A DNA stretch of 64,000 nt from positions 13,950,001 through 14,014,000 of the forward strand of contig OZ210885.1 of assembly GCA_964658305.1 (NCBI GenBank). Direction: 5' to 3'. The translations under genes and the position numbers were made by a program. The notes under the pieces were generated by a model. That model did not search any database, was not told where the DNA came from, and saw only the letters and a program-made list of their open reading frames with translations. Positions 1 to 59,898 of the stretch are shown piece after piece. Origin of the DNA: Leptogorgia sarmentosa (lineage: Eukaryota). Numbering within the stretch: position 1 is the stretch's first letter; each line of letters begins with the position of its first letter.

Positions 1-2687
1 AATAGTAGCCAAATTAACGTCAATTCAGGCACAGAGTTGCGAAGGGGAGCTCTCGTTAGAGGAATGTAAGAAGGCACTAGACGGTATGGCACCTTCAAAA
101 TCGCCAGGAATTGATGGCTTTCCAGCTGAATTTTACCAGCGTTTTTGGCCACTCATTGGACACGACTACGTTCAGGTCATGAACGGCTGTTACCAGGCCG
201 GCATGCTGTCTGCCTCTCAGAGACAAGGCGTAATCACTCTACTGTATAAACGTGGTGATAGACTGGAAATGAAAAATTGGCGCCCTATTACACTACTGTG
301 TGTAGATTACAAAATCGCTGCAAAGGCAATTGCCAATCGTCTTTTGAGGGTATTAGACACGCTGGTCCACACAGATCAGACGTGCGGCATTCCAGGTCGG
401 AGCCCGGTTGTCAACAATCGCCTGCTTTGTGACATTGTACAGGATGTCAACAAGAGGAAAGTAGGGGGGGCGATCCTCTCATTAGACCAAGAAAAAGCTT
501 TCGACCGGGTCGAGTGGTCATATCTCCAGCGGGTGCTGGAAAGCATGCAGTTTGGCGTATCCTTTAGGGGTTGGATACAGCTCTTTTATAATCATATTTT
601 CTCCTGTGTTCTGGTTAACGGAACACCATCTAACTTTTTTTCTGTGAGTCGAGGAGTGCGTCAAGGCTGTCCTCTGTCGCCTTTATTGTATGTTTTAATG
701 GCAGAAACATTGGCATGTGCAATTCGAGCGCACCCATCGATAGACGGGATTCCCTTACCCCGAACTCGGAGAGCGAAGATCTGCCAGTATGCTGACGATA
801 CGTCCATCATAGTGATGTCTGACGCTGCCTTAACGGCGGTATTTTCAGTGTTTGCACGATATGAAAAGGCCTCAGGGGCGAAATTGAATGTTGCAAAGTC
901 ACACGGCTTGCTCATGGGAACATGGATTGACCGCACCAACTTACCTGTTGCCCTTGATTGGTCATCAACCAGTATCACCATCATGGGATCAACAATTTCG
1001 AACCAGTCGGAGGAGAAAGACTGGGAGGCGAGAGTTTGCAAACTCACAGAGCTGCTTGCCTCATGGCAGAATAGGCAACTTTCTTTTCATGGGAGGGCTC
1101 TCGTGGTCAATATGCTCGGGCTCAGCAAATTCTGGTACCATGCGTCGTTTTTGTGTTTGCCAGACCAAGTGGCGACTGACATAGAGAAGCTTGTGTTTCC
1201 CTACGTGTGGAGGAAGAAGAGAGAAGGGATAGTTAGATCTTCGGTGAAGCAACGTTTTGGGCAGGGGGGACTGGGATTGGTAGATGTAAGGAGAAAGGCC
1301 GCCTCACTGCATGCAATGTGGATCCGTAGGCTAGTTGAAAATCCAGAGGCTATGTGGAATTTCTTTTTCTTGTATCATTTGCGCATAGCATTTACTGGGC
1401 GAAAGTTGGAAGACATCCTTCTGATGTCTTCACCCCCTCCACTGGATACTCTCCCTCCTTTCTACCAGTCGGTCATGAAAGCGTGGTTCCGTCTGGATCG
1501 TGGAAAGGTAGATGACGTAATTGTCGTGAAAACTCGCGGAGGTAGCATTCTTCCATTGACAGACTTGACTGCCAGTTTTGTTTATAGGGCTCTCTCTAGT
1601 ATAGATCGGGAAGAGCACAAATGTGTAAAGAAATTTCAAACATGGGGACTAGAAGTAGAGTGGCGGACAGTTTGGGCCAACCTCCACCTCTGGCGATTTA
1701 TCAGACCAGTGCGCGACACGGCATGGTCAGTGACGCATGGCATCTTGCCAACAGCAGACCGCTTGACTCGGTTTGGCATGTCGGTGGATCCTCTGTGCCA
1801 TTGCGGACAAGTCGAAACATTGATTCACCTCTTTGTGGATTGTCCGGTGGCAAAACACATGCTGAGATGGTACGTCTCCCTGACACAAAGATCGGTACCT
1901 TGGGTTGGTATGCCTACACCATCACAGGTGATGGTAGGTTACAAACAAGTGGTCAAGATTCCACCAGTTTTTCCGTGCCTTCTCGGGATAATCAGGCACC
2001 GCATATGGGTAGCCAGGAATGGTTGGAGATTTGACCAGGTCCCCGTAAGAAATGAGAGAGTTCTGTCAGCCATCAAATCTACGCTGCGCTTTACGTTGCG
2101 CATGCAGAGGCGACACTGCCCAGTTGAGAGGTTCTCGGAACTATGGTTAGCTGGTGGGCTGTTTGGAGTGGTGTCTCGGGAAGGAGATGAAATAATATTT
2201 CCAGATGAGATCTGGTAGTCTTTAGATGTAATGTAGTAACGGCGGGGGGTCGCCTTTGCTGGTAGCACTGCCCACAGTTGTGTCCCATGAAGATCTGGTG
2301 GTCGCCTTCACTGGTTGTACTGCCTGTATTGGATTGGGCTGTCTGTATGTTCAATTTTTGTCCTGTGGTTTGCTCGGATTTCATTCGGGTAGGCTGCACA
2401 GGTTTTCAATGTTTTAGATCTTGGGGTCGCTGCACATGTTGCATCCGTCTAGCTCAACATCACACTCCGACCATTTCACCATCATAGGTTAGGGATCCCT
2501 GGGCGTGAAGGTGGGTAGCACCGGACCGTCCAGGCCATGCACGGTTGTTTCATGGCACGGGGGAGGGGTTCATGACCTCTGTCGATCCGCGTCACCTGTA
2601 GTGACCCCCCTGAATGCGGCGATTGCACCGGGTTCAGGCTCCATTGCACCGTCGGAGTCGAGAAGCCCGTCGTCGTACAATTCAAAA
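1..2687 (+). mobile_element. Tx1-clade non-LTR retrotransposon family A (subfamily A1), U2-inserted; 5' part outside window
   Basis: RT ORF followed by a ~470-nt 3' UTR ending ...CAATTCAAAA directly before U2 nt 22 (TAAGATCAAGTGTAGTATC); no poly(A) tail. Confidence 0.9.
2..2218 (+). CDS. ORF2 C-terminal part: reverse transcriptase plus C-terminal CCHC motif (partial, open from window edge)
   Basis: KSPGIDG, WRPITLL, SLDQEKAFDRV, GVRQGCPLSPLLY, QYADD, C-x-C...ETLIHLFVDC; frame open from position 2. Confidence 0.9.
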   Translation: MVAKLTSIQAQSCEGELSLEECKKALDGMAPSKSPGIDGFPAEFYQRFWPLIGHDYVQVMNGCYQAGMLSASQRQGVITLLYKRGDRLEMKNWRPITLLCVDYKIAAKAIANRLLRVLDTLVHTDQTCGIPGRSPVVNNRLLCDIVQDVNKRKVGGAILSLDQEKAFDRVEWSYLQRVLESMQFGVSFRGWIQLFYNHIFSCVLVNGTPSNFFSVSRGVRQGCPLSPLLYVLMAETLACAIRAHPSIDGIPLPRTRRAKICQYADDTSIIVMSDAALTAVFSVFARYEKASGAKLNVAKSHGLLMGTWIDRTNLPVALDWSSTSITIMGSTISNQSEEKDWEARVCKLTELLASWQNRQLSFHGRALVVNMLGLSKFWYHASFLCLPDQVATDIEKLVFPYVWRKKREGIVRSSVKQRFGQGGLGLVDVRRKAASLHAMWIRRLVENPEAMWNFFFLYHLRIAFTGRKLEDILLMSSPPPLDTLPPFYQSVMKAWFRLDRGKVDDVIVVKTRGGSILPLTDLTASFVYRALSSIDREEHKCVKKFQTWGLEVEWRTVWANLHLWRFIRPVRDTAWSVTHGILPTADRLTRFGMSVDPLCHCGQVETLIHLFVDCPVAKHMLRWYVSLTQRSVPWVGMPTPSQVMVGYKQVVKIPPVFPCLLGIIRHRIWVARNGWRFDQVPVRNERVLSAIKSTLRFTLRMQRRHCPVERFSELWLAGGLFGVVSREGDEIIFPDEIW

Positions 2688-2854
2688 TAAGATCAAGTGT
2701 AGTATCTGTTCTTATCAGCTTAATATCTGATATGTTAGGCAATGTCCTAACTCATATATTAAACTGATTTTTGGACCTCGGCCATGGGATTGAAGCTTGC
2801 TTCGCCCTGGCCACGGGTTGTCTCGGTATTGCACTACCTCCGAGTACGGCCCAC
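2688..2854 (+). ncRNA. U2: U2 snRNA, 3' portion (nt 22 to ~188) of an interrupted gene
   Basis: TAAGATCAAGTGTAGTATCTGTTCTTATCAGCTTAATATCTGAT, Sm site GATTTTTGG, stem-loop IV CTCGGTATTGCACTACCTCCGAG. Confidence 0.95.
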
Positions 2855-3244
2855 TACCCCCAATTTCATTATTGGGGGAAGATTTCTCACTCATTATCAG
2901 TTCAAAAAAATTCTAACAAATTATTCTTGACTTTACAGATAGCTAGATCCTCGCCGCCGCGAACCGGCATTTGGCAAGAGATACGTATATAATGACATCA
3001 TTATTCAGTGCGGATGACCGACGACGAACGAATTATGGTAAGCAGTCTAACACATTCATGTTATAATAGTCTTGGGTAGCTACTCGTTGGCCAACAAAGC
3101 TTAAGCAGCATCGCTGTTCGTGAGATTTACATACTTTGACTTTTTTTGTTAATTCGTATTGAATATGCGGGTCGAGAATTGTCGGAACGTGCAAACACGG
3201 TGCAGTCCGAGAGATCGATCGATCCATCTATCCACAGACAAACT

Positions 3245-3320
3245 CATCCCCATGCATTCGTTCCACAAGCATTCCTCGCGGTTGAAGCGTATAAAAGGTA
3301 ATCGTATGCGCCATGAAGTC
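3245..3320 (+). promoter_or_regulatory. Putative U1 snRNA proximal promoter (candidate PSE TCCACAAGCATTCCTCGC at about -59)
   Basis: Similar sequence recurs upstream of the other U1 starts; resembles TCACCATGCTTTTCTCGC at about -49 of U2. PSE assignment is inference. Confidence 0.4.
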
Positions 3321-3337
3321 ATACTTACCTGACGCGA
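3321..3337 (+). ncRNA. U1: U1 snRNA 5' fragment (nt 1-17)
   Basis: ATACTTACCTGACGCGA, containing the universal U1 5' splice-site-binding sequence ATACTTACCTG. Confidence 0.9.
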
Positions 3338-3965
3338 CCGTCTTTCTCGTGTCAGGTTCTTCACCCTTGCAGTAGAGGATCTATGCTCAGGAACACGGAC
3401 CTGTAACTCTGCTCGCAAGGTTTACAACTAGCTGCAGTTCTTTTTGCAGACACGCCTTCTTCTTTGTTCTGTCTTCCCGCTGTCTGGCCGGCCTACTAGG
3501 TGTCAAGGTAGCAGTTAGTCCATTCTTTTTTCTTTTGGACTGCTTTTCTTGTTCTTCGGAACTCGATTGGTAGTCCTTCCTGCTGTTTGTTGCGCGGTTA
3601 GCACGCGACACAGCATAGGGCCGCCCATTACAGTGTTTTTTATTGTTTTTATTAGGTAGTGGGTAATAGCTCTTCTTGTGTGTGACCTGTCGAGGAGTCT
3701 GTTTGGGGACTACTCAAAGGTCGGTGGTCTATTTAGGTTCTTTTTTTGCATTCGGTGTTGCGGATTGCGGTCGGTGGGCCAACACATCCGTTCCCTGCCT
3801 CTTCTTCTTTAAAAAGGACCTTTCTTTCCACTTAGTTTTTTTTTATGTGTGGGTCTTAATTTGTGTTACTTTTCAAGACTCAATTTTCTTTGCCACTCGG
3901 GTTTTACCTGTTTTGGCATTTTGTTTAGGATCAATTTGCTTTAGTTAATCATAATTTATAATAGT

Positions 3966-5703
3966 ATGTCTGCCCCAGCCGTGTTTAGTCAAGAGGACTT
4001 TGCGAAGTGGAACCAGACCACGTCTGTGTTTCTCTTGCCAAAGAAACTGGTTGGCAAATCCAAAGTCCCTCAGCTACGGGGAGAATTAGTTAAGGCCATT
4101 GGGGAGAAGAGTGTGTCTTGTGTTCAGGCCTTGCCTGGCATGAAATTTCGTGTGTGTTTTTCTTCTCCCTCCGTTCGAAGTCAGTTTGACATCAACGGTC
4201 TTAACTTTCGGGGCCTTACCATCACGCCCTTCCCGGCCTATGAGGAGGTCAAATCCGTTTTTGTGGATCGTGCACCTCCCCAGATGCCGGATCAATACAT
4301 CTACGACGCCCTGGGACCATACGGTCGTGTGATCGCGGTGAAGCACTTAACCATTAAGGGCTTCCCGTCTGTTAAATCTGGCACACGTATGGTGCAAATC
4401 GTCATCTCGAAGGCCATCCCAGCTGAAATTCGCGTGGTTGGATTTCAGCTGTCGTTCCGTTACCGCGGGCAGCCTCCAACTTGCTTTGCGTGCCAAGAGG
4501 TGGGGCACACTGCAAAGGCCTGCCCAAAGTCATCAAAACGGCATGGCCGTCCTCATCGAAATAGTGCTGGTAAACCACAGCCTACAGAGGCAGAGGATCG
4601 TAACAACCTGCCGGCTTCGTCCGGCCTTTCTGAATCGTCCTCTGGCTCTCGCACTGGAGACCTTCGCGAGAAATTAACTCCGAAGGCCACTAACTCGGCA
4701 GTGCCCAAGGCTACCCAGCAAGTCTAAACCTACAGGGGGTTCGGCCAACAATCATAACAAACCCTCCTCTTCTTCTTCTTCTCGCAAGGGTGACCTGCGT
4801 GAGAAGTTAACGAAGAAGACTAGCAAGCCAGAACTGCCATCTGTTCCGGGTGTAGCAGCTAAGGCCAATGCTCCTCAGGCTAAGGGGGTTAATCCCCTAT
4901 TAGCTTCGGCTAAGGAGAGCACCTTCTTGCCGGCCTCGTCCGGCCCTTCTAAATCGACCTCTTCTTCTCGCCCCAGAGACCTTCGGGAGAAGCTGAGGAA
5001 GAAGGTTCCCAAGGCCACCGAGCCGTCGGATGACACCACAGTGACACCTCCGACAGCGGAGCATTTGAAGTGCAAATCCTTCGATTTTGCGCTTCCAATA
5101 CCCTACGCAAGCCCACGTCCCCTTGGCAAGTCATCATCCAAGGCACCTAAGGGTGTTAGGGCCAACTCCACCAGGGATGCTCCTTTTTCCTCTTCCTCCT
5201 CGAGTAGTGAGGATGAAGAGGGTATAGTGTCCAAGAGGGTATGCCAGTCCGCTCCTGCTCCTTCGACTCCGACCAATGTTAGCGTGTGGCCAGGGTTCAC
5301 GAGCCCTCCTAGTCTAACTGCCACTCCTGAGGTCATGGAGGCCGAGGCTGACGTGGACAAATGTTTGAGTGGTGATACGGTCGTTGATCCGATCATCGCT
5401 CAAGAATCTGCGCCTGCTCTTGACTCTATTGAGCCAGTCGGATCCCCGGAGCGTATGGAGGATGCTCCAGTGCTTCCTCAGGCTGATGTGGACGATGACG
5501 ACAATGCTGCTTCGCAGGATCCTCCTGCAGTGGATGTCTCGTCCCAACAGTCTGAGTTATCCCTTGATCTTTTCGAGGCACTGGCATCGATCCATGAAGC
5601 CTCACTGTCTAGTCTCCGCGATGATGTCAGTGAGGTTGGTGCATCTTCCACATGCACGACTTTCAGTGACGACCGTATTAAACAAACCGCCCTGGTGGAT
5701 TGA
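3966..5703 (+). pseudogene. Family B ORF1 (RRM-like region + CCHC zinc knuckle), frameshifted
   Basis: CFACQEVGHTAKAC; split into ORFs 3966-4727 and 4927-5703; homologous to intact 32031-33836. Confidence 0.85.
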
Positions 5704-5724
5704 ACGACCGCCCTGGTGGAGTAA

Positions 5725-8700
5725 ACGACCGTATTAAACGAACCGCCCTGGTGGATTGGTTAAAATGTATGAAGGTAGATGTTGCATGTTTTCAAGAAAC
5801 GCATGCTCCTTCGCACGAATCCATTAGCAAGTGGTTCGCTAATTCTGGCTATCGAGTTGTCTCGGCGTCAGTTTCTAATAAGCGTTGTGGTACGGCCATT
5901 CTTATTAAAGATTGCCACAAAGTCAAGCAGGTGATTCGAGACGATGATGGACGGTTTGTCCAAGTCTTGGTTGATTTTGGGGAAGATCAGCTGAGTTTCG
6001 TCTCATTATATGCCCCAAATAAGAATCCGGCTCGCAACGCTTTTTTCTCCTCAATTCCTGGTTTAATTGATCTTACCAGGCCCACATTTGTTTGTGGTGA
6101 TTTTAATTCTGTTCTAGACGATGATCGGGATAGGCTTCGGCGTGCTTCTTACACTGGTGCTGCCTCTTCGCGCGCCCAGGAAAGTGGCCCAGCCTTGCAG
6201 GCCCTACTATCTCATACCCAGACATATCCGGTGTGGCGTACGTTACATCCCACGCAGACGGCTTATTCCTGGACCCATGGGTCCGGAACCTTTGGCTCGC
6301 GCATCGATACGGTCTGGGCCCCGACTTGTCTGGAACAGTCTATTAGGGAATGTGAAGATCATCCCTCCTTTTTATCCGATCATCAGTACTTGCTGGTCAA
6401 GTTCGACTTTTGATCGCATCGTTAGTGGTCCTGGAGTGTCGAAGTTTAATACTTCCCTCCTGGACGACGAGAATTATTGCTCGCTTGTCACTTCTTTTCG
6501 GTCCTTCTGGCAGGCCCATTATACGCCTGAGGCCTTTCCCTCCATTTTGGATTAGTGGGACCAAGGGAAGTTCTACCTTAGAGAAGTGACACGCACTTTT
6601 TGTCGGTCAAAGGAGCTGGACCGGCGAGAACATAAATCCTTCCTGACCAAGCAGATGCACAGACTGCAGCGTCTTTTCGAAGCAGGGGATACCTCTGCAT
6701 TTGCTAAGCTTTGCGAGGTTCAGGAAGAGCTCCGCGGCATTGCTTTGCATGAAGCGAGAGGGGCACAAGTTCGTGCTCGTTGTCAGTGGGCTGAGGAGGG
6801 GGAAACTTCCTCCTCCTTTTTTCTCAATTTAGCCACTAAGCGACATGCAAAGCAAGAGATGCACTCCATTCGAGACCCCGACACCGGTTCCGTGCGCCAC
6901 GACCCTTTTGAGATCTTGGACGTCTGGCGGCGGTATTACACCGAACTCTTTACTGCGGCACCCTGCGATACACCTGCTCAGGATGAGATGCTGTCAAAGC
7001 TGTCTCGCCGCCTTAGTAAGGAGGAACGTGCGTGTTGTGAGGGTCTTCTGTCTATAGAGGAGTGTTTTACTGCCCTGTCGGGTATGGCTTGGGGAAAGAC
7101 TCCGGGTTCCGATGGCTTTCCCATGGAGTTTTTCCTCAAGTTTTGGTCATGCCTTGGCGCTGATCTGGTTCGTGTCCTCAACGTTGCTTACGAGGCCGGC
7201 CAGCTTTCCACCTCTCAGCGTCGAGGTTTGATCATTGTGCTCTATAAAAAGAATGACCGCTTGGAGACAAAGAACTGGCGGCCGATTAGTCTGCTCAATG
7301 CAGACTACAAAATAGCTACTTGCGCCATTTCGGGTCGTCTCCTAGCCGTCATTGGGTCTGTTGTAGGGCCAGATCAAACGTGCGGTGTTCCAGGCCGTAC
7401 TCAGAGAACCTCTTTCTGATCTGTGATCTAATTGAGTATGCGGAGAATGAGGACATTCCCCTCGCTCTGCTCTCTTTGGATCAAGAAAAAGCATTTGATC
7501 GGGTCGATTGGGGTTTTTTTTTACGGACTCTGGACACCATGAATTTTGGTCCGGATTTCTGCCGATGGGTAAAGTTGTTTTACTCCGACGTAGAATCGGC
7601 GGTAGTCATCAATGGCTGGACCTCCTCCTTTTTTCGCCCCTCACGGGGTATGCGGCAAGGTTGTCCGCTTTCTCCTTTATTATACGTTCTATCGATTGAG
7701 GTGTTAGCAGCTAACATCCGCTCTGCCCCAGGTATAACTGGGGTTTTCTCCCTCAATCGCTGGAACAGTTTAAATGCTCTGGGTATGCCGATGATACGAC
7801 GATTGCGCCTACCACGGATGAATCCATAGAGGCCACCTTCGAGGTGTATTCTCAGTTTGAGAAAGCCTCAGGCGCTCGTTTGAATCGTGGCAAATCTAAG
7901 GGCATGTGGCTGGGCTCCTGGAAGCACCGTACCGATACCCCTCATGGTATCCAGTGGGTTAAAGAGCTCCCATTACTAGGTGCAACTTTCAGTGCCGCTG
8001 ACTATAGTCAGCAGACCTTCGAGCCAGCCGTTTCAAAATTGGAGAAGCGTTTGTCAGACTGGTCTGGACGCAAACTGTCCTTTCAGGGCAAGGCCACAAT
8101 TATCAACACCTTGGCCTTGTCCCAGATATGGCATTTGTGTCACGTCTTCCCTGTTCCGAAGTGGGCGGTTCAGAGAATACACAAGGCAGTTTGGAAGTTC
8201 TTCTGGTCTGGCAAGCGGGATCTTGTTGCCCGCAAAGTAGTCTGCCTTCCCAAATCCAAGGGTGGATTTGGAGTCATCGATTTCCAACTCAAGGCAGACG
8301 CTTTTGCCCTTCAATGGGTAAAACGATTCTTCGCCGAAGATCGCGGCAAATGGAAGGACTTTTTTATCCATTTTGTTTCTGCCTCACTTGGTTGCGAGCC
8401 TCGTGAGGCCCTTTTATCTTCCTTTTCCCAACGTCGTTTGAGAGCCTTGCCCGAGTTCTATCGTATGTCTTCCGGGTGTGGCAATTTCTCGACGGTGGTC
8501 TTACCGGCAATGACTTGTGCATTGCTGCCTCGTCTGCCTCTCCACTACCTGTGGATAACATATCCAGTAGGAATGTATACCAAATCAGCCAAAGCAATTT
8601 GAACAGTCAGCCACATTGTATTGCCAAATTCACGCCGCAGTATGGACCTCTACACTGTCCCCAAACTTGGAGTCAGCTCCATCTATGTCCATTTGACCGG

Positions 8701-9168
8701 CTTGTGATCGATCTAAACTGGCAAATAGCGCACGGCATTCTTTACACAGGCTCTCGCTTGGGAACCCGCTTTAACATGCCGAACATCGATACGCGCTGTT
8801 TCTGTCGAGCAGATGAAGAAACTTTAGAACATCTGTTCTTCGAATGTGAGCTGGCACGCCTTTTGGTGGCTTGGGTACATTACAATTTATGGCAGATATG
8901 TCCTAATGCCGCACCATTTACCGTCACGAAACTCCTGTTCGGCTTCTCGTCCGAACGACGGCGCATCATGCCCCCAATCATTGTGTGGATGCTCCAAGTG
9001 ATGAAACATACCATCTGGGTGGCGCGCTGTGATTTCCGTTTCCGAGGTAAGCGGCCAATCGCCTCCGATTGCCAAGCGAAAGCCATCGCTAAGATCAAGT
9101 TTGTCCTTGGTCTTTTTGGTCGTAGGTGCAAGCTCCCTGCTCAAGTGCGATCTTTTGCGTGCCAGTAG
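5725..9168 (+). pseudogene. Family B ORF2 (APE endonuclease + RT), disrupted
   Basis: QETH, GDFN, SDH, DQEKAFDRV, QGCPLSP spread over several frames; homologous to 33808-37353. Confidence 0.85.
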
Positions 9169-9239
9169 CACCTTCCTCGATTTAGGGAAATCCATTGCAC
9201 GCCCCCCAGTGGGGGTGGATTTGCCTATATCCAACATAA

Positions 9240-9268
9240 ACTTACCTGACGCGAGAGGCACCTTGATC
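9240..9268 (+). pseudogene. U1: U1 snRNA nt 3-31, remainder deleted
   Basis: ACTTACCTGACGCGAGAGGCACCTTGATC then jumps to spacer GGCATCCTAG (compare 37707-37940). Confidence 0.8.
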
Positions 9269-9507
9269 GGCATCCTAGTTTATTGAAGGGACAACAATTC
9301 TATGTGCTCTTCACACTGCGGGCCGCGTGTTTCACAAACACGTGTAACTCGATACTACAACGCGGTCATTCGAAACGAACATATAACCATGCAATCAATA
9401 TTCGATTACTCACACCTTGTTGTAGGCACGTCACGTGGAATGAATGAATGAGTCAATCCATACACGCGCTGCCAACCGATCATGCATTTTATACTAGACT
9501 TATGTTA

Positions 9508-11996: not shown

Positions 11997-12339
11997 CTTA
12001 TGTTAAACAACCATTTCCAATTCAAATGCACTCGTCATTTCTCCAACCGAAGCGCAACCGGACGCGCTTCGTTCAACTCAATGCATGTCGGTCATTTGCC
12101 ATTCGCGAATCGGTCGCGGAGCCAGCGAATGGGAAAAAGCGCCACGTGCGCCCGCCAAAAAATCGCCAGAAATTCGTGGAGAACACACATGCGTCACGAG
12201 CAGTTTCGCGCGTGCAGCCGAATTAATTAGCAGCGCACAAACGATTGATTGTACGCGTCATCATCACCGCGTGCCACAACGTTTGCGGCTCGTTTCGCTT
12301 GCGATTTCGCGGCGGCCGCGGCTTCTCATGGCGGCGCGA

Positions 12340-14626: not shown

Positions 14627-14633
14627 GTTTTCA

Positions 14634-39104: not shown

Positions 39105-39143
39105 AGTCATTAATACAATAGTAAATACTATCGTGTGGTGAGG

Positions 39144-47800: not shown

Positions 47801-48564
47801 TTACTTGGAGTTCAATTGAGTGAGGATCTCAAGTGGAATAAACACGTTGATTATATCTACAAAAAAGCTTGCAAGAAGTTATATTCCCTCCGCGTACTTT
47901 GTAGAGCTGGCGTTGAGCAAAGAAATATACTAAAAGTGTACCTAACTACTATCAGACCCGTATTGGAATATGCAGTCCCAATATGGCAAGCGATCACTGA
48001 CTATTTAAGTGAAAGAATAGAATCAATACAGACAAGGGCACTTCGAATCATCTTCCCCTCCATAGACAATTATAATGAGGCGATGATAATGGCACAGATA
48101 CCAACATTGGAGAGCAGACGCGACCTGTTATGTAAAAAATACATGACTAAAATGAAGAAGGAGGATCATCCCCTGCATTTCATGCTCCCAAAACATATGA
48201 TAAGCGAATGCAGGTATAGCCTATGAAATGGGCAAGACAATACTATTTTATTTAAGGACACAATTAAATGTAGAACTTTAAGATCCGAACAATTTTTTAC
48301 TTTTAAATACTTTTGAATATTCTTAAATATCCCTAATTATACTTAGTTTTATAATTTTATCTACTATGTAAATATAACTCTAGTAATACTCTGAGCCTAT
48401 AAATATTGTGATTATGTAAATACATATAGCCATAAATATAGTCAATGTTGTAAATATAGTAATTTAACATAGCCTTAGTAATACCATGCATGGACTCGTT
48501 AATTCAGTGTAATTACTGCAAGAGAGTTCCAATAAACATCAAATCAAATCAAATCAAATCAAAT
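44897..48564 (+). mobile_element. L2/CR1-group LINE with (CAAAT)n tail
   Basis: ITETWL, GDFN, SDH (to 46743); DFSKGFD, GIPQGTKLG, KFVDD (47144-48226); AATAAA then (CAAAT)5. Confidence 0.85.
46713..47104. mobile_element. Fold-back MITE (392 bp), 2-bp AT duplication
   Basis: Whole element is an imperfect palindrome GGACCAATTGCATAATAG...CTATTATGCAATTGGTCC; its removal restores LINE codons PQSIESDLRPISLT. Confidence 0.9.
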
Positions 48565-50187: not shown

Positions 50188-50975
50188 TGAGTGTGTGTGG
50201 CCAGGACTTCTAGCATGAGGCAAAGACCAAAGGGTAACCTGCGGAACCCTTCCGAAGGCCGAATCGCCGAGACCACTCGCCAGGATGGAAACAAGTGAAC
50301 TGCGCATGTGCAGTGTCACAACAACAGCTCGAAGGCCACGATCCCTGCGAATTGACATTCGCTATATTCATGAAAACAACGAGAACGATACGAGCTTCCT
50401 AACACGCGAAGCTACTAAAAGCTGTGCATGATGAAGGAATTAAAAAAGAAGACCTTCAGGGTCTCGAAATCCAAGGGAAACACACCGCCTACGTGGTTTT
50501 TAAAACCTTCGGAACACGTAACAAGTTCCTCAACAAAAAGATTACCGCACAAGGACAACGACTTACCCTCGATCACCTGAACCCGACCTTCAACCGTTAA
50601 CACACCACACTGGTGCATGTTTACAATTACCCTATTGACAGTGAGACACACGACCTAACCACGGTATTGGGCCAATACGGCAAACCCGCCGGCCACGTCA
50701 CAATTGTAAATGACAGCTACGGACTGGGCACAGGGGAATGAACAATAGTAATGGAAATCAAAAAGGACATCCCATCATACGTTTTTGTCAGCAAACACCA
50801 GGTACACATACGGTACTACCAACAACCGCAAACATGCCGAAAATGCTACAAAACGGGCCACATTGCATGAGACTGCATTGAAGATGCAACATGCAGAGAG
50901 TGCAGAGCCACTGACCATACACGGCGCGAATGCCCTCAGAAGATCTGCTTCCACTGTGGGGAAAAATATAAAAAA
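50188..50975 (+). pseudogene. Decayed ORF1 of an unrelated L1/Tx1-like element with three zinc knuckles
   Basis: Manual translation: TLVHVYNYP...MEIKKDIPSY...YYQQPQTCRKCYKTGHIA*DC...CRECRATDHTRREC...CFHCG. Confidence 0.7.
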
Positions 50976-51615
50976 AGATTGACGGTTTCGCCTTGCCTGG
51001 AGGTGAGGCAGTGAAAATCTTCCAGTATGCGGATGACACCAGTATACTCGTTCAATCTGATCGTGCTTCACAGGCCTTGTTTTCTTTGTTTGAGAGGTAT
51101 GAACGGGCATCTGGTGCCAGACTGAATGTTGCAAAGAGTCATGGCCTTTTAGTTGGGTCTTGGAAGCAGCGGGTCAATTTGCCGATTGAGCTGAATTGGT
51201 CCAATGATTTTATTACTGTTTTGGGGTGCCGGATCAGTAATGATGAGGTTGACTGGACATCATTGCTCGGCCGGTTTCAAGGCCAATTGGCTTTGTGGAA
51301 ACAGCGCCAGTTGTCGTTCCGGGGGCGTGCGTTAATCGCAAATGTACTGGGACTTTCCATTTTTTGGTATCAGGCCACCATTTTTGATGTACCCAAGTCC
51401 GTTGTTAATGCCATCAATAAGATCCTTTTTCCCTTTGTGTGGGGGAATAAATGTGAATGGATTGCTCGTTCTTCTGACACACGGCCCACATCCCACGGTG
51501 GGTTGGGTGTGATCGACGTGGCACGTAAAATCTCCTCATTGAGGGCTGTCTGGTTCCGACGATACTTGTCGGCCTGTCCTCATCCTTGGTCGGTATTTTT
51601 TACTCATCATGTGAC
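50976..51615 (+). pseudogene. Tx1 RT fragment, C-related subfamily
   Basis: KIFQYADDTS, SGARLNVAKS, LSFRGRALIAN; fused to U2-U1 spacer sequence. Confidence 0.8.
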
Positions 51616-51891
51616 CACGAATTATACTTGCATGGTAAGAAGCAGCCTGACACATTCATGTTATAATAGTCTTGGGTAGCTCGCTGGCCAACAAAGCAGC
51701 ATCACTGTTCATGAGATTTACATTCCTGGATTTTTTTCTAAACTTGTATTGAATATGGTCGAGAATTGTTGGAACATGCAAACATGGTGCAGTCCGAGAG
51801 ATTGACAGACAAACTCATCCCCATGTATTCGTTTCACAAGAATTCCTCGCGGTTGCAGCGTATAAAAGGTAATCATATGTGCCATGAAGTC

Positions 51892-51973
51892 ATACTTAAG
51901 GTACCACCCCTAAGGTGGGTAACTCGAGCATATAATTTCTGGTAGTGGGGACCTGTGTTCGCGCTCGTCCCCT
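51892..51973 (+). pseudogene. U1: U1 snRNA pseudogene with internal deletion
   Basis: U1 upstream region + ATACTTA joined to SL III, Sm site TAATTTCTGG and SL IV. Confidence 0.85.
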
Positions 51974-52053: not shown

Positions 52054-52619
52054 CAAATCAAATCAAATCAAATCGCTTTATATCTACAGTATCGCTTTAA
52101 ATCTACAGTATTTACACATATATAATAAGAATAAGAGTGACAAGTGACAATAATACAAATCAGTTACAATTAACGTTATCTATACAATGACAATTAACAC
52201 TTAGACTTTACAGTTACTAAGACACTACATACTAGCTACTGATTTACAAGATTGTCGTGCGGGAGACCGTTCATACAGAAAATAAATTGTCAATTTCTCT
52301 CTGAAATTGATTAAGAGAGCCTATTGCTCGAATATTTTGAGGTAACTCATTCCACAACAATGCTCCGCTTTAGCTAAAACATTGTTTGCCATAGTTCGTA
52401 CGCGGTTTTGGCACAAATAAACTGTTTTCTGAGTTTCTCAAATTGTATCCTGTGCTGCGGGATTCAAACAATTCGCGGAGATAATATGAAGTTAAATCAT
52501 TAATTGTTTTAAACATCAATATAGCTTTGTGCTTTTTTCTTCGTATTAGAAGATTATCCCATCCCAGTCTACCAAACAGTTCGCTGGAGCTAGTATCATG
52601 TCGAGATTTGGTGATGACC
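52054..52619 (-). mobile_element. 3' fragment of L2/CR1-group LINE
   Basis: LGWDNL...YNLRNS...PKPRTNYGK on minus strand; (ATTTG)n tail near 52054-52074. Confidence 0.75.
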
Positions 52620-55600
52620 AACAGCTTCAATCCAGCCGAAACCCGCCCCATTCAAGGAATGTACCGCCACTCCAAGAAGCGTGCTGCACAGAAAATCCTT
52701 TCCACCAACTCCATATCCTATTCTGGCACTACGGACGATGCCCTAACCTTCTTCGGCAACGTCTTTGCCGCCCGACCCTGTGCAAGATCCTTGCTCTCGT
52801 GTTTAACCGTTGCATGACGGAATCCAACATACCCAAGGCCTGGAAGGACGCCTGTACAATCCTCATACACAAAAAACACGACCCCTCCGACCCGGCAAAT
52901 TTCCAACCCATCCCCCTCATGTCCTGCATTTATAAACTGTTCATGGGAACCCTGGGCAATCCACGACGGCATACTTTCACAAGAACAAAAAAGTGCCCGC
53001 CCATCCGATGGCTGCTACGAGCACACATGCCTTCTCAAATCCATCATCAGCGATACTCATGTGAATAAGAGGACAACGTACCTGGCCTGGCTCGACTTGC
53101 ATAACGCCTTTTGGAAGGATCCCCCACCCGGCTATTCGAACCACCCTCCAACACATCGGTGTTCCAGAGCGAGCCCCTCGTAGCCCTTATAACGAACGTG
53201 TACAATGAGGCCAGCACCACCATGCGCACTTCCACCGACTCGACTGAACCCATTCCCATTCGCTCCGGAGTGAAACAAGGTTGCCCTCTCAGCGCCATAC
53301 TTTTCAACCTATGCATCGAGCTCATTATCCGGTCCATCAAAATGAAAGCCACCACCCTCCCATGCAACCAGTCCTTGTCCTTCCACAACACACCAGTATC
53401 CTGCCTCGCCTACGCTGATGACCTGGTACTCCTGGGACGAAGTAAAGAAACCCTACAAACCTACCTCGACATTGCCTCCAATACTGCCTCCATCCTTGGA
53501 CTCGAATTTCGCCCTGACAAGTGTGCCACCCTAGTCTTTGTCAATTGCAAAGGTGAACCTGTCCGTATCGACCCACATGTGTTCATTAAATAATCTTTAT
53601 TATTAAATAATCTTTATACAGGATAAAAACATCAGTATTTACAAATATATACAAAATAGGTACACAACGTGTACATGTATCTGCGTGTAAACGTGAAACA
53701 TATTCAATACTTGATATAAGCTTTCATGACTATCTCGCATTCAGGAATTCGCGCGATCATATGAAATTGCATAATGAATTTAAACTTGACGAAATATGAT
53801 ATCGCATTTTATGCTATTGCGTCTTTAAAATAGAGACAGCGCTTTGCGATTGTTTGTGAAGAATGTGGCTTTCTAAAAACCAAATTTACTCTTTTCAAAA
53901 CCATATTATAATATATTTATATACACTATATTCTATCCATTGGTTCATGCAGCATTTGCCTAGACGCTCAAGTGCATGATCGGTATGCGCGTAGGTTCAA
54001 AACAGAATACTTGAAACTATATATTATGATTTGCTTTGTTTTGTCTCATTACAAGCTACAAAATCTATTTTCCTGGGATTGAATGTTTCAACCATTCAGT
54101 ATAGCGAAGCGGCAAAATATAGTAGATATTCCGTGATCACAATGACACCGCGTGCAGCCCAAACATGTACAAATGTGTCAGTGCCGACACGCTAAAGTAT
54201 TGTAGGGAAAATATACGCGCAATTTTGTCAAGACATAAACCTCTTTCATAACCTTAAATATATTCCCTGTGTGTGTTCAAGGTAATACAATGTATAATTG
54301 CGTCCATAGTAAACCTCTTTAATATCTTTAAAAGCAATGCCAATGTATGATTTGCGTTGTGATAATTTTGCGTATCTGGGTATAAATCTGCGGCACGCAG
54401 TGTCTCATTTCTATCCTACTTTTGATATCCAAATGACCCGTAAAACCTGCTGTAATTCTGTCATGTTTACACTTACCAGATCAAGATAGGTCTCCGTATA
54501 AAATGGCGACAAAAGTAGGATAGAAATGAGAAACAAGTACAATATTTTAAGCGATTTACCAACTTGCTCTTGCTTCGAAGTTCGAAGTATTTGCAAATGG
54601 CGGGACATCAGAATCGACATGCGAAAAGCTCTGCTCTGATTGGGTACAAGCTAACAGCACGAAGCTCTGATTGGCTAGAAGCTAACAGCACGAAGCTCTG
54701 GTTGGCTGCAAGCACGGTTACGGTTACAGTTACAGTTAGTTACAAGACGATAGCAATATATGATTGGCTAGAAGCTAACAGCACGAAGCTCTGGTTGGCT
54801 GCAAGCACGGTTACGGTTACAGTTACAGTTACAGTTAGTTAGAGATGCTAATCGATCTGTCTGAGTTTTGGTATGAGTAAGCTTGACTGGACCAGCATAG
54901 GTTAAAATTGGGAGTATCATCATGGTGTAGATCTTTGTTGCTGCATGACTATTCAGATAGTTTCTAACATTCTGTAGTAGTCTCATACGACTGCTTGCTC
55001 GTTTATAGGCTCGTTCAAAATTACTGTTCAGAGTGAGTGTACTCTCCAGGACATTTCCAAGGTACACATATTCTTTAACAAAAGAAATAAGTGTGCCGTT
55101 GTAATAGATTTTAAGTTCTCTTCCATTTTGACTCAATCTCAAAAAACAATTGCTTGAATCGTACCACCGTGCCCTCGTCCAAACCCTCCGTAACATCTGT
55201 GACATACCCAAACGATCGACACAGGCCTATTTCTTTGCCTCGAAGTGCTCCAGTGGCCTTGCACTGCAAGATCCAATGTCCGAGATTGACGCCCAATGCA
55301 TCGTCCAAGCTGTTCGAATCCTGTCCTCGTCTGACCCCACTACCGCCTCCATCGCTCGGGCTGACCTCCATGCCGTCGTCCGACGCACCACAAGCTCCAA
55401 CCCCTCACCAAACCTCATATCGAAACGCCTTATTTGCAGCACCGAAAACCCACTCGGCAACCTCAATTACACAAACTCGTCCTTGTGGTCCAGATGTCGC
55501 AAAGCCTGTCGACGCCTCAACATCCGTTTCGTGTTCTCGGATACCGAAGAACCCGCAATCTCCACCACAGATTCTGATCGCATCAAATCCAAGAATGTAA

Positions 55601-56497
55601 CCAGCTTCCTCCACCGCTACATCCAACAAAAACATTCCCAAAAACTCCTCGACCTACCTGACCAAGGCAAAGTAGCTCAATGTCTCTCCAACGACCGTTA
55701 TGCCAATGGCTCCACCTGGCACAGTACTGGATCGAACCTCCGATTCAAAGACTGGTGCTTCATTCATAAAGCCTGCCTGAATTGTCTGCCAACCAATTCT
55801 GTGAAAGCTCGATGGTCCAACACCTCCCCCACCTGTCGCCACTCTACCGACGCTGAGACTCTACGGCACATCATCAACCACTGCCGTCCAGATCTCGTGC
55901 ACATACGTACCCGACACAACAAATTAGTCACCCGCATCACAGATGCCATCCGCTTTGGCACCATTACCTCAGACCGCACCAATGCCTCATCTGATCTCCT
56001 CCTATGCCCAGACATCATCTTAGAAGAAGACGATCACACCTTAATTATTGACGTTACATGTCCCTTCGACAATGGTCCCGATGCCCTTGAGGAAGCTGCA
56101 CAGGCAAAGATCACCAAATACCTCCCGCTCAAAGAACATTGTCAGTCCAATGGAAAACCCTGTGAAATTCTCCCTTCTGTTGTTGGTTCCCTTGGATCCT
56201 GGCACCCTTCTAACAAACTCCTCCTGTCCAAACTCGGAATGACCCAACGCTGCCGAACGCTATTTTGCAAACTATGTTGTACGGATGCTATCCAAGGCTC
56301 GTGTGATGTCTATCGACTCCATATGGGATAGGATCACACAGCTGGGCTCTTAGGTCTTTTACACAGTGCACGTGACACGCATGCCTTTTATTTTTTCCAT
56401 TTAGACTCCACCTTTTATGTTTTCATTCCCCCTTATATACCTGCACACACGTAAGCCACTCGGGCACATGAACACTAGATACTCAGACTTGAGTCTA
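52620..56497 (+). mobile_element. Decayed RLE-type non-LTR retrotransposon (NeSL/Utopia-like), interrupted
   Basis: RT GVKQGCPLS, LAYADDL (53111-53590); C-terminal RFKDWCFIHKACLN, ETLRHIINHC, RHN, PDII, IIDVTCPFDNG, KY, VGSLGSW (to 56331); 3' end abuts U1 upstream region. Confidence 0.85.
53591..55155 (-). mobile_element. Composite insertion: minus-strand L2/CR1-like fragment plus unclassified AT-rich repeat
   Basis: YVYLGNVL...KRASSRMRLL...MILPILTY at 54841-55150; duplicated ~75-bp block with (GTTACA)n at 54670-54840. Confidence 0.6.
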
Positions 56498-56527: not shown

Positions 56528-56544
56528 ATACTTACCTGACGCGA
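56528..56544 (+). ncRNA. U1: U1 snRNA 5' fragment (nt 1-17)
   Basis: ATACTTACCTGACGCGA. Confidence 0.9.
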
Positions 56545-59500
56545 CGTCTTTGTCGTGTCAGGTTCTTCACCCTTGCAGTAGAGGATCTATGCTCAGGAAC
56601 ACGGACCTGTAAGTCTGCACGCAAGGTTTACAACCAGCTGCAGTTCTTTTTGCAGAACCGCCTTCTTCTTTATTCTGTCTTCCCACTGTTTGGCCGGCCT
56701 ACTTGGATAGGTGTCAAGGTAGCAGTTTGTCCATTCTTTTTCTTTTGGACTGCTTTTCTTGTTCTTCGGAACTCGATTGGTAGTCTTTCCTGCTGTTTGT
56801 TGCGCGGTTAGCACGCGACACAGCATAGGGCCGTCCATTACAGTGTTTTTATTGTTTTTATTAGGTAGTGGGTACTAGCTCTTCTTGTGTGTGACCTGTC
56901 GAGGAGTCTGTTTGGGGACAACTCAAAGGTTGGTGGTCTTTTAGGTTATTTTTTGCTTTCGGTGTTGCGGATTGAGGTCGGTGGGCCAACATATCCGTTC
57001 CCTGGCTCTTGTTCTTTCAAGGACCTTTCTTTCCACTTAGTTTTTTGATCCTTAGTGTGTGTGGGTCTTAATTTGTAGTACTTTTTAAGGCTCAATTTTT
57101 TGTCACTCGGGTTTTACCTGTTTTGGCAGTGTGTTAGGATCAATTTGGTTTAGTTAACGCTTAAATAGTAATTTATAATAGTATGTCTGCCCCAGCTGTA
57201 TTTAGTCAGGAGGACTTTGCGAAGTGGAACCAGACCATGTCTGTGTTTCTCTTGCCAAAGAAACTAGTTGGCAAATCCAAAGTCCCTCAGCTGCAGGGAA
57301 GAATTAGTTAAGGCCATTGGGGAGAAGCGTGTGTCTTGTGTTCAGGCCTTGCCTGGCATGAAATTTCGTGTTTGTTTTTCTTCTCCCTCCATTCGAAGTC
57401 AGTTTGACATCAACGGCCTTAACTTTCGGGTCCTTACCATCACGCCCTTCCCGGCCTATGAGGAGGTCAAATCCGAGTTTGTCGATCGTACGCCCCCTCA
57501 GATGATATTTATGACGCCTTGGCACCATATGGTCGTGTTATCTCGGTGAAGCACTTAACCATCAAGGGCTTCCCGTCTGTTAAATCTGGCACACATATGG
57601 TGCCAATAGTAATTTCGAAGGTCATCCCAGCTGAAATCCGCATGTTTGGATTTCAGCTGTCGTTTCGTTACCGTGGGCAGCCTCCAACTTGCTTTGCGTG
57701 CCAGGAGGTGGGGCACACTGCAAAGGACTGCTCAAAGTCTTCAAAACGACGTAACCCAGCCAAAAATAAAAATAATGCTGGTAAACCTAAGCCTACAGCG
57801 GCTAAGGCAAAGGAATGCAATAACCAGCCGGCTTTGTCCAGTAAAACTGCATCCTCCTCTTCTTCTCACACTGGAGATCTACGTGAGAAGTTAGCTAAGA
57901 AGGCTACTACACCAGCAGTGCCGTCTGTTCAGGCTGTAGAGGGTAAAACCAGTAAATCTAAGCCTACAGTGGCTTCGGCCAAGAATGGCAATAACCAGCA
58001 AGCTTCCTCTTCTCGCAAGGGAGACCTTGAGAATAATAAAGAAAGCTAGAAGGACAGCTGTGCCGTCTGGTCAGGCTGGCAAGACTAATTCTACTGCATC
58101 TCAGGCTAAGGTGGTAAAGGATCTCTTAGTTTCGGCTGAGGAGAGCACCTACCTGCCAGGGATGTTCCTTTATCCTCCTCCTCCTTGAGTAGTGAGGATG
58201 AGGAAGTTATAGTGTGCAAGAGGGTATGCCAGTCCGCTCCTGCTCCTCCTCCGAGTCCAATGTTAGCGTGTGGTCGGAGTTCCCGAGCCCTCCTCAAACT
58301 GCCACTCCTGAGGGGATGGAGGCAGAGGCTGACGTTGACAAGTGTTTGAGTGGTGATACGGTAGTTGATCCTATCGTCGCTCATGAATCTGCGCCTGCTC
58401 TTGCCTCTACTGAGCCAGTCGGATCCCCGGAGCGTATGGATGATGCTCCCGTGCATCCTCAGGCTGCTGTGGACGATGATAATGCTGCTTTGCAGGACCC
58501 TCAGTCTGAGTCATCTGTGCCAGGACGCAACAGTCTGAGTCATCCCTTGATCTTTTCGAGGCACTGGCATCGATCCATGAAGCCTCACTGTCTGGTCTCA
58601 GCGATGATGTCAGCGAGGTTGGTGCATCTTCGACATGCACGATGTGCATGTGATCAGCTTCGTGCTGATCAACTCGAGGCGCTCCTTCTTGGTGAGCTGG
58701 CCACATCTGGGACATCAGATTCCGATGGCGAGTCTGTTGTCCATTAACATCAGTGGTCTTAACCACCGTATTAAACAAACCACCCTGGTGGATTGGTTAA
58801 AGTGTATGAAGGTGGATGTAGCATGTTTGCAAGAAATGCATGCTCCGCATGAATCATTAGGAAGTGGTTTGCTAATTCTGGCTTTCGAGTTGTCTCGTCG
58901 TCAGTTTCAAATAAACGTTGTGGTACGGCTATTCTTATTAAAGATTGTCACAAGGTTAAACATGTGATTTGAGACGATGATGGGCGGTTTGTCCAAGTCT
59001 TGGTTGATTTTGGGGAAGATCAGCTAAGTTTCGTCTCACTATATGCCCCAAATAAGAATCTGTTGCCGTATCTGCCTCTCCACTTCCTGTGGATAACGAA
59101 CTTAGTCAAACCAATTTAAATAGTCAGCCACATTGTATTGCCAAATTCACGCCTCAGTATGGACCTCTACACTGGCCCCAAACTTGGAGTCAGCTCCATC
59201 CATGTCCATTTGACCAGCTGGTGATCGAGCTGAACTGGCAAATAGCGCATGGCATTCTCTACACGGGCTCCAGCTTGGGAACCTGCTTAAACATGCCCAA
59301 CATGTGCAAGTGCATAACTCCCGAATGTGACCTGGCCCGTCTTTTGGTGGCATGGGTACATTAAAATTTATGGCAGATATGTCCTACTGCCGCACCATTT
59401 ACCGTCACGGAACTCTTGTTCGGCTTCTCGTCCGAAAGGCGCCGCATCATGATTCCCATACCATACCATCTGGGTGGCTCGCTGTGATTTCTGTTTCCGT

Positions 59501-59898
59501 GGTAAGCTGCCAGTCACCTCCAATTACCAGGCGAAAGCCATCGTGAAAATCAAGTTTGTCCTTCGCCTCTTTCGTCGTCGGTGCAAGTCTCCTGCTCAAG
59601 TGCGATCTTATGAGAGGGATTGGCTCGGTGGAGCGTGTCTTCTCCTTTTAGGTTTTTTAATCCTTTTTTCTTCCTCTGCCGTTCCGTGAAGGGGGGTCGC
59701 CTTCGTTGGTTGTACTGCCCGGATCGGTTCGGTGAGGTTGTTCTCTTTTTAAATCCCTGTTGCTGCCTGTATCAGGTGAGCATCGGTGCATGTACCATCC
59801 TAGTATGTGTTGTTTTTTATATAGAATTAAATGCACTAATCGAGGCATCGGAATAATAAATACTCTCAGGGTGCATTTAATGAGGAGGTAGGGATCGT
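56545..59898 (+). mobile_element. Family B copy 5, decayed, RT deleted
   Basis: Same 5' junction; fragmented ORF1; ORF2 jumps from APE to C-terminus near 59060; partial 3' UTR. Confidence 0.85.

What the first reader, a model, noticed from the sequence alone, without database searches (positions are those of the whole stretch)
1..59898. Alternating U2/U1 snRNA gene array saturated by three site-specific Tx1 retrotransposon lineages
Seen: subtracting insertions leaves a repeat of [U2 - spacer - U1 - spacer]. The order is A(U2)-B(U1)-A(U2)-B(U1)-C(U2)-B(U1)-C(U2)-B...-B(U1), all co-oriented with the snRNA genes and inserted at fixed nucleotides, and no intact U1 or U2 remains. Known: Tx1-clade elements can be sequence-specific (Keno at U2), and R1/R2 co-occupy rDNA units. 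Inference: this is an rDNA/R1-R2-like niche in a linked U1-U2 array, with one lineage per target and two lineages sharing the U2 site.
Basis: partly seen in the sequence, partly recalled or inferred. Interest (0 to 1): 0.88.

Follow-up and report, generated by a model that had tools for sequence, protein, structure and literature searches.

The report
LINEs targeting U1 and U2 starts
In this animal, likely a soft coral, three lineages of jumping genes sit at fixed bases near the starts of tandem U1 and U2 splicing-RNA genes, where they likely borrow the genes' promoters, and their tails end in a conserved motif predicted to bind the splicing protein U1A.

Summary
Confirmed with corrections. 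The window is a stretch of a tandem U2-spacer-U1-spacer array (unit about 1.3 kb). Eight of nine snRNA positions carry a co-oriented L1-group (Tx1-like) LINE. Lineage B sits in U1 (nt 1-17 before it, nt 3 onward after it). Lineages A and C sit in U2 (nt 1-27 before, nt 22 onward after), which is not the Keno/Utopia site (nt 38/39). U1 targeting holds beyond this genome: 10 of 18 complete 3' ends of relatives in metagenome contigs abut U1 nt 3, 8 lie elsewhere, and these relatives form one clade with B. 'Saturated' is only local: in three public runs B has roughly 5-10% of the spacers' depth, and empty U1 sites exist. New here: tails carry AUUGCAC 39-49 nt from the end, in a hairpin whose stem covaries, like the U1A-binding loop of U1. 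The U2 nt-22 site was seen only in this window. No paper on a U1-targeting LINE was found; Repbase could not be searched. The scan's unchecked notes report similar insertions at U1/U2 starts on other DNA.

The parts
1..2687 (+). Element A1, 3' part (ORF2 2-2218: RT and C-terminal zinc domain; shared 3' tail about 2283-2687; AUUGCAC hairpin at 2643)
2688..2859 (+). U2 snRNA from nt 22 to the 3' end
2860..3320 (+). U2-to-U1 spacer with the U1 upstream region
3321..3337 (+). U1 nt 1-17
3338..9239 (+). Element B1, frameshifted, tail partly deleted
9240..9268 (+). U1 nt 3-31, the rest deleted
9269..12405 (+). U1-to-U2 spacer, split by a 2.5-kb terminal-inverted-repeat element (9508-11996, 9-bp duplication)
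12406..12432 (+). U2 nt 1-27
12433..18340 (+). Element A2 (ORF1 13241-14626 open, zinc knuckle; ORF2 broken; AUUGCAC hairpin at 18296)
18341..18512 (+). U2 from nt 22 to the 3' end
18513..18961 (+). U2-to-U1 spacer
18962..18978 (+). U1 nt 1-17
18979..22437 (+). Element B2, internally deleted and 3'-truncated; followed by an unrelated LINE (22438-24858)
24859..25171 (+). Remainder of the U1-to-U2 spacer with the U2 upstream region
25172..25198 (+). U2 nt 1-27 (one mismatch)
25199..30759 (+). Element C1 (ORF1 26140-27345 open; ORF2 with deletions; A-type tail; AUUGCAC hairpin at 30715)
30760..30931 (+). U2 from nt 22 to the 3' end
30932..31376 (+). U2-to-U1 spacer
31377..31393 (+). U1 nt 1-17 (one mismatch)
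31394..37706 (+). Element B3, full length with both ORFs open (ORF1 32031-33836, 601 aa; ORF2 33808-37353, 1181 aa: APE endonuclease, RT, zinc domain); AUUGCAC at 37661
37707..37868 (+). U1 nt 3 to the 3' end, near-complete but behind the element instead of a promoter
37869..38358 (+). U1-to-U2 spacer, uninterrupted
38359..38385 (+). U2 nt 1-27 (one mismatch)
38386..44261 (+). Element C2 (ORF1 39144-40400 and ORF2 40542-44093 both open); tail cut about 170 nt after the stop
44263..50183 (+). B fragments (44263-44896, 48560-50183) on either side of an unrelated LINE (44897-48559)
50975..51612 (+). Fragment D, ORF2 piece of a further C-clade lineage (64% aa to C2)
51613..51973 (+). Spacer and a U1 copy without an element but deleted from nt 8 to about nt 95 (51892-51973)
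52617..56497 (+). Broken RLE-type (Utopia/NeSL-like) non-LTR element, interrupted at about 53670-55130, ending about 30 nt upstream of a U1 start
56528..56544 (+). U1 nt 1-17
56545..59898 (+). Element B4, internally deleted, 3' end lost
59899..63212 (+).

Best explanation
Three lineages of L1-group (Tx1-like) LINEs sit co-oriented at fixed bases near the starts of tandem U1 and U2 genes, likely because their endonucleases cut there and the elements are then likely transcribed from the snRNA promoters left upstream. Shown: element anatomy, fixed junctions, empty sites, one clade per target, and U1 nt-3 junctions in relatives from other data sets. Inferred: an APE nick on the bottom strand before U1 nt 3 or about U2 nt 22 primes reverse transcription; the repeated snRNA piece (15 nt in U1, up to 6 nt in U2) comes from a staggered second cut or from copying an snRNA leader on the element RNA. 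Most units of the array stay empty and supply the snRNA; this window is a local graveyard, enlarged by copying of already inserted blocks. Predicted: the AUUGCAC motif in the tail binds U1A-family protein and affects 3'-end formation or stability of an RNA that has only a short A-rich end.
For: Two ORFs with zinc knuckle, APE, RT and zinc domain, catalytic motifs present, best solved relative human L1 ORF2p. Same junction in 4 of 4 U1 5' ends, 2 of 2 U1 3' ends, 3 of 3 U2 5' ends and 3 of 3 U2 3' ends. Empty U1: a contig joining 31390 to 37719 at depth 528 in run X5 and a loose end continuing into U1 in run X8; contigs across the 5' junction have the depth of B-internal contigs (X1 1616 against 1619-1732; X4 19.8 against 14-20). 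Of 38 metagenome loci picked by a tail motif, 18 show a complete U1-clade 3' end and 10 of these abut U1 nt 3. B and these relatives form one clade (99/99), A and C another (100/100). Locus L007 is a full-length element that begins with U1 nt 1-12 although neither flank looks like U1. AUUGCAC lies 45-46 nt from the end in 5 of 5 intact window tails and 39-49 nt from the end in 7 of 9 U1-site tails measured, and is absent from 3 of 3 Keno-type ends. In a 14-tail alignment the loop is invariant and 4 of 6 stem pairs change on both sides.
Against: 8 of 18 complete 3' ends of U1-clade relatives are not at U1, so specificity is partial in those families. The 10 U1-site ends come from only three data sets by contig name, and two (L016, L035) are 92% alike downstream. 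The U2 nt-22 site has no support outside this window: the two A/C-type loci (L030, L038) lack a usable 3' junction. A1 and A2 share a recently copied 3' block, so the three U2 3' junctions are not three events. Promoter capture rests on position, orientation and one locus (L007). In B1, B3 and L034 the motif is not in a simple hairpin. Depth of Logan contigs is not a copy number. The protein tree used LG+G4 with long branches.
Confidence: 0.78

Rival explanations
1. The alternating pattern comes mostly from local duplication and unequal exchange of a few founder insertions, not from repeated targeting.
For: A1 and A2 differ by 3.2% in the tail, 0.6% in U2, 4.9% in the spacer and 4.5% in the following B start, against 29% in ORF2. 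B2 is a mosaic (ORF1 region 82-86% but 5' UTR 93% alike to B1/B3).
Against: A and C have unrelated 5' ends yet the same U2 junction; C1 and C2 differ by 15%; B1 and B3 (3.5-3.8%) are closer than their spacers (8.2%). Relatives at about 41-46% ORF2 identity use the same U1 site in other data sets. Duplication probably adds to targeting but cannot replace it.
Confidence: 0.1
2. The endonucleases have only a short sequence preference; the high-copy snRNA array is a hot spot and a safe haven, and there is no true gene specificity.
For: 8 of 18 complete relative ends are off U1, several flanks begin with a few U1-like bases, and one lies in another element. An earlier unchecked note (e1-7883824) reports a similar pattern on other DNA.
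Against: 10 of 18 at one base of one small gene; five of these are head-to-tail stacks at the regenerated site; in runs X1 and X4 the 5'-junction contig of B is as deep as B itself, and no loose end at B's termini is among the 24 listed of 193.
Confidence: 0.1
3. These are chimeric retrocopies made by template switching between snRNA and LINE RNA (as in U6/L1 chimeras or SINEU heads), or an assembly artefact.
For: Each element starts with an snRNA 5' piece; L007 carries U1 nt 1-12 away from a U1 locus.
Against: The snRNA 5' pieces follow the genomic upstream spacer, and the 3' remainder runs into the downstream spacer. Contigs of public runs cross both B junctions and the empty site. Copies differ by 4-29%.
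Confidence: 0.02

Closest known systems
Keno (Tx1 clade, APE-type, U2-specific; PMC4494074, PMC4640811, PMC6136364)
   Same: APE-type LINE inserted at one base of U2. Elements at the Keno site occur in the metagenome loci (L031, L034) and share the upstream 3' UTR motif with A, B and C.
   Different: Keno leaves U2 from nt 38/39 downstream; A and C leave nt 22 onward and repeat up to 6 nt; B targets U1. Keno-type ends lack AUUGCAC and lie on a separate long branch, although a joint clade with A/C is not rejected (p-AU 0.35).
Utopia (NeSL clade, RLE-type, U2-specific; PMC4640811)
   Same: Several families share a U2 array; disrupted and intact genes coexist.
   Different: RLE instead of APE; site at nt 38/39; U2 only. 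The window's RLE element resembles Utopia by domain type and by the hosts of its distant relatives, but its 3' flank is the U1 upstream region.
Dada-U1 (DDE DNA transposon in zebrafish U1 genes; PMC3706591)
   Same: Targets U1; carries the same seven-base motif near its end.
   Different: A DNA transposon with a different site and a 6-bp duplication; its motif is a DNA subterminal inverted repeat, whereas here it is single, on the RNA sense strand, with a covarying stem.
R1 and R2 in rDNA (recalled; R2 also mentioned in PMC4640811 and PMC8869645 passages)
   Same: Several site-specific LINEs share a tandem RNA-gene array, are co-oriented with it, and occupy a minority of units.
   Different: The targets are two different Pol II snRNA genes in one unit, hit within 30 nt of their starts; co-transcription is shown for R2 (recalled) but only inferred here.
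Linked 5S-U1-U2 tandem repeat of Acropora pruinosa (PMC8167085)
   Same: U1 and U2 linked in a tandem array in a cnidarian.
   Different: The unit here has no 5S gene (no Rfam hit); the word 'retrotranspos' does not occur in that paper's main text.

Membership tests
Tx1 clade (L1 group) | ORF1 with zinc knuckle; ORF2 with APE endonuclease, RT and C-terminal zinc domain | tested here: met
   Pfam zf-CCHC in A2 and B3 ORF1 (none found in C ORF1, which is 41-43% identical to A2 ORF1 over 179 aa); Exo_endo_phos, RVT_1 and zf-RVT in B3 and C2 ORF2
Tx1 clade (L1 group) | RT phylogeny inside the Tx1 clade among named reference families | tested here: inconclusive
   No named Tx1 or Keno protein was available. 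Best solved relative is human L1 ORF2p; the elements group beside Keno-site elements and share a UTR motif with them
Tx1 clade (L1 group) | Target-sequence preference with target-site repeats | tested here: met
   Fixed junctions in the window; 10 of 18 relative ends at U1 nt 3; repeats of 10-17 nt at U1 and up to 6 nt at U2
Keno | Insertion leaving U2 from nt 38/39 downstream | tested here: not met
   A and C leave U2 from nt 22 (nt 22-25 allowing for microhomology); B is in U1 (site from PMC4640811 and PMC6136364 passages)
Keno | Monophyly with Keno proteins | tested here: inconclusive
   Only unnamed Keno-type loci were on hand; the free tree separates them, the AU test does not reject A/C plus Keno-type
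Utopia (for A, B, C) | Single ORF with restriction-like endonuclease | tested here: not met
   Two ORFs with APE
Utopia (for the element at 52617-56497) | RT plus C-terminal zinc finger and RLE motif | tested here: met
   RVT_1 hit and a CCHC plus PD..D-type C-terminus read from the translation; relatives in octocorals and, at about 30%, in arthropods including Camponotus floridanus, a listed Utopia host
Utopia (for the element at 52617-56497) | 3' end followed by U2 from nt 39 | tested here: not met
   Followed by the last 30 nt of the U1 upstream region; one broken copy, so a later deletion cannot be excluded
U1A-binding RNA hairpin | AUUGCAC single-stranded in a loop closed by a stem | tested here: met
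   Invariant loop, C-G closing pair in 13 of 14, stem 90% paired with double changes in 4 of 6 pairs; motif from PMC5499560 passages
U1A-binding RNA hairpin | Binding by U1A-family protein | not testable with these tools
   Needs a binding assay

The most novel reading that the evidence does not exclude
These LINEs are snRNA mimics. They are transcribed from the captured U1 or U2 promoter with the snRNA's own leader, and they recruit U1A through a conserved tail hairpin, so the element RNP enters the snRNA 3'-processing or trafficking route and is brought back to snRNA gene arrays. Anthozoan U2-U1 arrays would then be a shared niche of at least four target-specific lineages (U1 nt 3, U2 nt 22, the Keno site and a Utopia-like RLE element).
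Probability: 0.2. Interest if true: 0.85.

Novelty: new variant of a known kind. Interest (0 to 1): 0.62.

Why it matters
A 2015 paper lists only Keno and Utopia (one U2 site) and the DNA transposons Dada-U1 and Dada-U6 as elements targeting snRNA genes (PMC4640811). Here are a LINE clade for U1 and a second U2 site, with two copies whose ORFs are open (B3, C2). Related APE endonucleases with three different targets in one array make target switching testable in vitro. The tail hairpin suggests a host splicing protein as a LINE cofactor, and insertion within 30 nt of an snRNA start raises the question of how a 6-kb RNA is made from an snRNA promoter.

Tried and rejected
No whole genome is held for the window, so copies could not be counted genome-wide. 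No RNA holder was listed; this says nothing on expression. No read or contig evidence was obtained for the U2 sites, so empty U2 sites and off-target A/C copies remain untested. Searches for C relatives in viral and prokaryote contigs found no locus; the one viral hit of the tail motif (L001) has no Tx1 similarity. Fold-back of the snRNA leader onto the element's first 60 nt was beyond shuffles only in B (B1 2 of 500, B3 11 of 500; 7 other cases 44-387 of 500), so it is rejected as a general feature. A replacement promoter in the tails was looked for by eye only and not seen. Hammerhead or other RNA targets at the 8 off-U1 flanks (a lead from earlier notes) were not found: one weak Rfam match at E 0.5 far from the junction and no shared flank family. 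L034's first element first grouped with the U1 clade because it is a chimera of a U1-clade 5' part and a Keno-type 3' part; it was left out of the final tree. L008 fell on a long branch outside the U1 clade in the quick tree (28% of columns filled) and is assigned by its tail only. No Rfam family matches the tails. No Pfam hit in four ORFs of the terminal-inverted-repeat element. The supplements of PMC4494074, which may list more Tx1 targets, could not be read.
Full report
OBSERVATION. Rfam finds three U2 and two U1 matches at E up to 0.1. The alignments show that the U2 matches lack their first 21 nt, and weak matches mark separate U2 5' pieces. A motif scan and the sequence place U2 nt 1-27 at 12406, 25172 and 38359, U2 from nt 22 at 2688, 18341 and 30760, U1 nt 1-17 at 3321, 18962, 31377 and 56528, and U1 from nt 3 at 9240 and 37707. 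With insertions removed, the unit is U2, a 445-461-bp spacer, U1 and a 490-bp spacer, about 1.3 kb. Eight of nine snRNA positions carry an element; the ninth (51892-51973) is a deleted U1 with none. The U1 behind B3 is whole except nt 1-2 but has no promoter in front.

THE ELEMENTS. A, B and C are two-ORF LINEs with APE endonuclease, RT and a C-terminal zinc domain. B3 and C2 have both ORFs open and the catalytic motifs in place. ORF2 identity is 49% between A and C and 37-39% between B and either. The best solved relative is human L1 ORF2p. The closest named relatives of B and C are from the octocoral Paramuricea clavata (59-60%), and those of the RLE element from the octocorals Xenia and Dendronephthya, so the host is likely an octocoral (inference). 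'Tx1' is a likely but untested clade label, since no named reference was on hand.

THE SITES. Passages of PMC4640811 and PMC6136364 put the Keno and Utopia site at U2 nt 38/39. A and C leave U2 from nt 22 (22-25 allowing for microhomology) and keep nt 1-27 upstream, so this is another site. B repeats U1 nt 3-17.

INDEPENDENT LOCI. A 23-nt motif sits in the 3' UTR of all three lineages (8 matches in the window, 0 in 100 shuffles). It found 38 metagenome loci. Eighteen show a complete U1-clade 3' end: 10 abut U1 nt 3 and 8 lie elsewhere. Two more (L025, L031) are Keno-type ends, two (L030, L038) have an A/C-type tail without a usable junction, two (L017, L026) have no Tx1 similarity, and 14 are truncated or rearranged. 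Of the 10, five continue into U1 for 45 nt or more and five continue for 10-17 nt and then into another element's 5' end. They come from three data sets by contig name. L031 and L034 show a Keno-type end, U2, a spacer of about 190 bp, the U1 start and a U1-clade element, so a doubly hit U2-U1 unit exists elsewhere with a different spacer. In a 25-row tree (LG+G4, 728 columns; rows chosen from the 57 for length), B and the U1-clade loci form one clade (99/99), A and C another (100/100), and Keno-type loci a long separate branch; joining A/C with the Keno type is not rejected. Listed contig lengths suggest that these lineages cluster in related genomes: 10 of 16 RLE-bearing contigs of 40 kb or more share their exact length with a contig bearing a B or A/C relative, and three lengths occur for all three (indirect, and the lengths were copied from part of the tables).

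OCCUPANCY. Contigs of four public runs from three studies were laid on 31000-38340. One contig of run X5 joins 31390 to 37719, skipping B, at depth 528, and a loose end in X8 continues into U1. Median summed depth over B is 5%, 7% and 10% of that over the spacers in X1, X4 and X5 (X8 covers B only in part and was not counted). These depths are no copy numbers and the runs need not be the window's species (best share of words 0.37), but they show that most U1 units are empty. Contigs crossing B's 5' junction are as deep as B-internal contigs in X1 and X4, which fits most full-length B copies lying in U1. The U2 sites have no such test.

INDEPENDENCE OF COPIES. A1 and A2 differ by 29% in ORF2 but 3.2% in the tail and 0.6-4.9% in the U2, spacer and B start that follow, so this block was probably copied once. 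The C1 tail differs from both by 15-16%, and a C relative from another data set (L030) has the same tail type at 71%, so the tail is ancestral to the A/C clade. B1 and B3 are closer (3.5-3.8%) than their spacers (8.2%). Targeting and local copying both contributed.

THE TAIL. AUUGCAC lies 45-46 nt before the end in 5 of 5 intact window tails and 39-49 nt before it in 7 of 9 U1-site tails measured (two have deletions; L027 starts too late to measure), in all 8 off-U1 tails, and in none of 3 Keno-type ends. In 14 aligned tails, chosen for having the motif, the loop is invariant, the closing C-G pair is kept in 13, and 4 of 6 stem pairs change on both sides; over a 30-pair structure that I drew from the alignment, 88.8% of cells pair and 0 of 500 shuffles reach this, while slid controls give 47-60% (the shuffles ignore relatedness). 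A strict stem of 4 bp or more closes the motif in 13 of these 14 tails and in A1, A2 and C1, against 0 of 24 other sites, a set that includes B1, L034 and snRNA genes themselves; B3 also lacks a strict stem. AUUGCAC is the U1A-binding sequence, and U1A regulates polyadenylation of its own mRNA (PMC5499560 passages). Binding here is a prediction.

MECHANISM. Target-primed reverse transcription from a nick near the snRNA start follows from established L1-group biology (recalled). Promoter capture is inferred from co-orientation, insertion within 30 nt of +1, and L007, a full-length element that starts with U1 nt 1-12 although its 103 nt of upstream flank do not resemble the U1 upstream region of L031/L034 and its 3' flank is not U1 (one case).

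A FOURTH ELEMENT. 52617-56497 is a broken RLE-type element with relatives in octocorals and arthropods. It ends about 30 nt before a U1 start. A Utopia-like copy whose U2 flank and spacer were deleted, or a different target, both fit.

LITERATURE. Seen: PMC4494074 (abstract, passages, section 15; supplements not readable), PMC4640811 (passages, section 5), PMC8869645, PMC3706591, PMC5499560, PMC6136364, PMC8167085 and PMC9005458 (passages). Ten searches (listings read, not all papers) showed no LINE targeting U1, no U2 nt-22 site and no AUUGCAC hairpin in a retrotransposon. Linked U1-U2 arrays are known in Acropora. The library lacks most subscription papers and Repbase, where such families may be filed. 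Unchecked notes of this scan describe similar insertions at U1 and U2 starts in other genomes; none was found near this window, by B's protein sequence, or for the hairpin.

VERDICT. A real and well-supported new variant of target-specific LINE biology: new targets, a shared niche and a testable RNA motif, but not a saturated array and not a new class of element.

Noticed in passing
window 52617-56497: Broken RLE-type (Utopia/NeSL-like) element ending about 30 nt upstream of a U1 start; three Xenia relatives carry near-consecutive gene numbers on one contig, and Utopia is not listed from cnidarians in PMC4640811 Table 1.
   Followed up: partly
window 9508-11996: 2.5-kb element with about 110-bp terminal inverted repeats and a 9-bp duplication in the U1-to-U2 spacer; AT-rich interior without a Pfam hit in four ORFs tested.
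   Followed up: partly
window 22438-24858 and 44897-48559: Two unrelated LINEs (tails of TAT and AAATC repeats) in B fragments; the second holds a 412-bp palindromic element at 46703-47114.
   Followed up: no
window 3321-3380 and other B starts: The first 20 nt of B can pair with U1 nt 7-17 (11 bp in B1), covering part of the splice-site-binding end; not general among relatives.
   Followed up: yes
L004:1078-1252 and 13 other loci (alignment A1): U1-clade tails hold a conserved multi-helix RNA element with a tRNA T-loop-like hairpin upstream of the AUUGCAC hairpin; no Rfam match.
   Followed up: partly
L034 about 1811-7400: Chimeric element with a U1-clade 5' part and a Keno-type 3' part joined inside ORF2, showing recombination between target lineages.
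   Followed up: partly
L025 and L012: 5S rRNA genes lie near the U2 start (L025) and downstream of a U1 fragment (L012), on the opposite strand, like the 5S-snRNA linkage known in corals.
   Followed up: no
window 25645-26085 and 38717-39105: C 5' UTRs contain many copies of a short repeat of about 17 nt.
   Followed up: no
window 50184-50974 and 52046-52530: A gag-like fragment of another element, and what looks like the 3' end of a LINE on the minus strand.
   Followed up: no
window 63671-64000: AT-rich tandem repeat of about 56-62 nt at the window's end.
   Followed up: no
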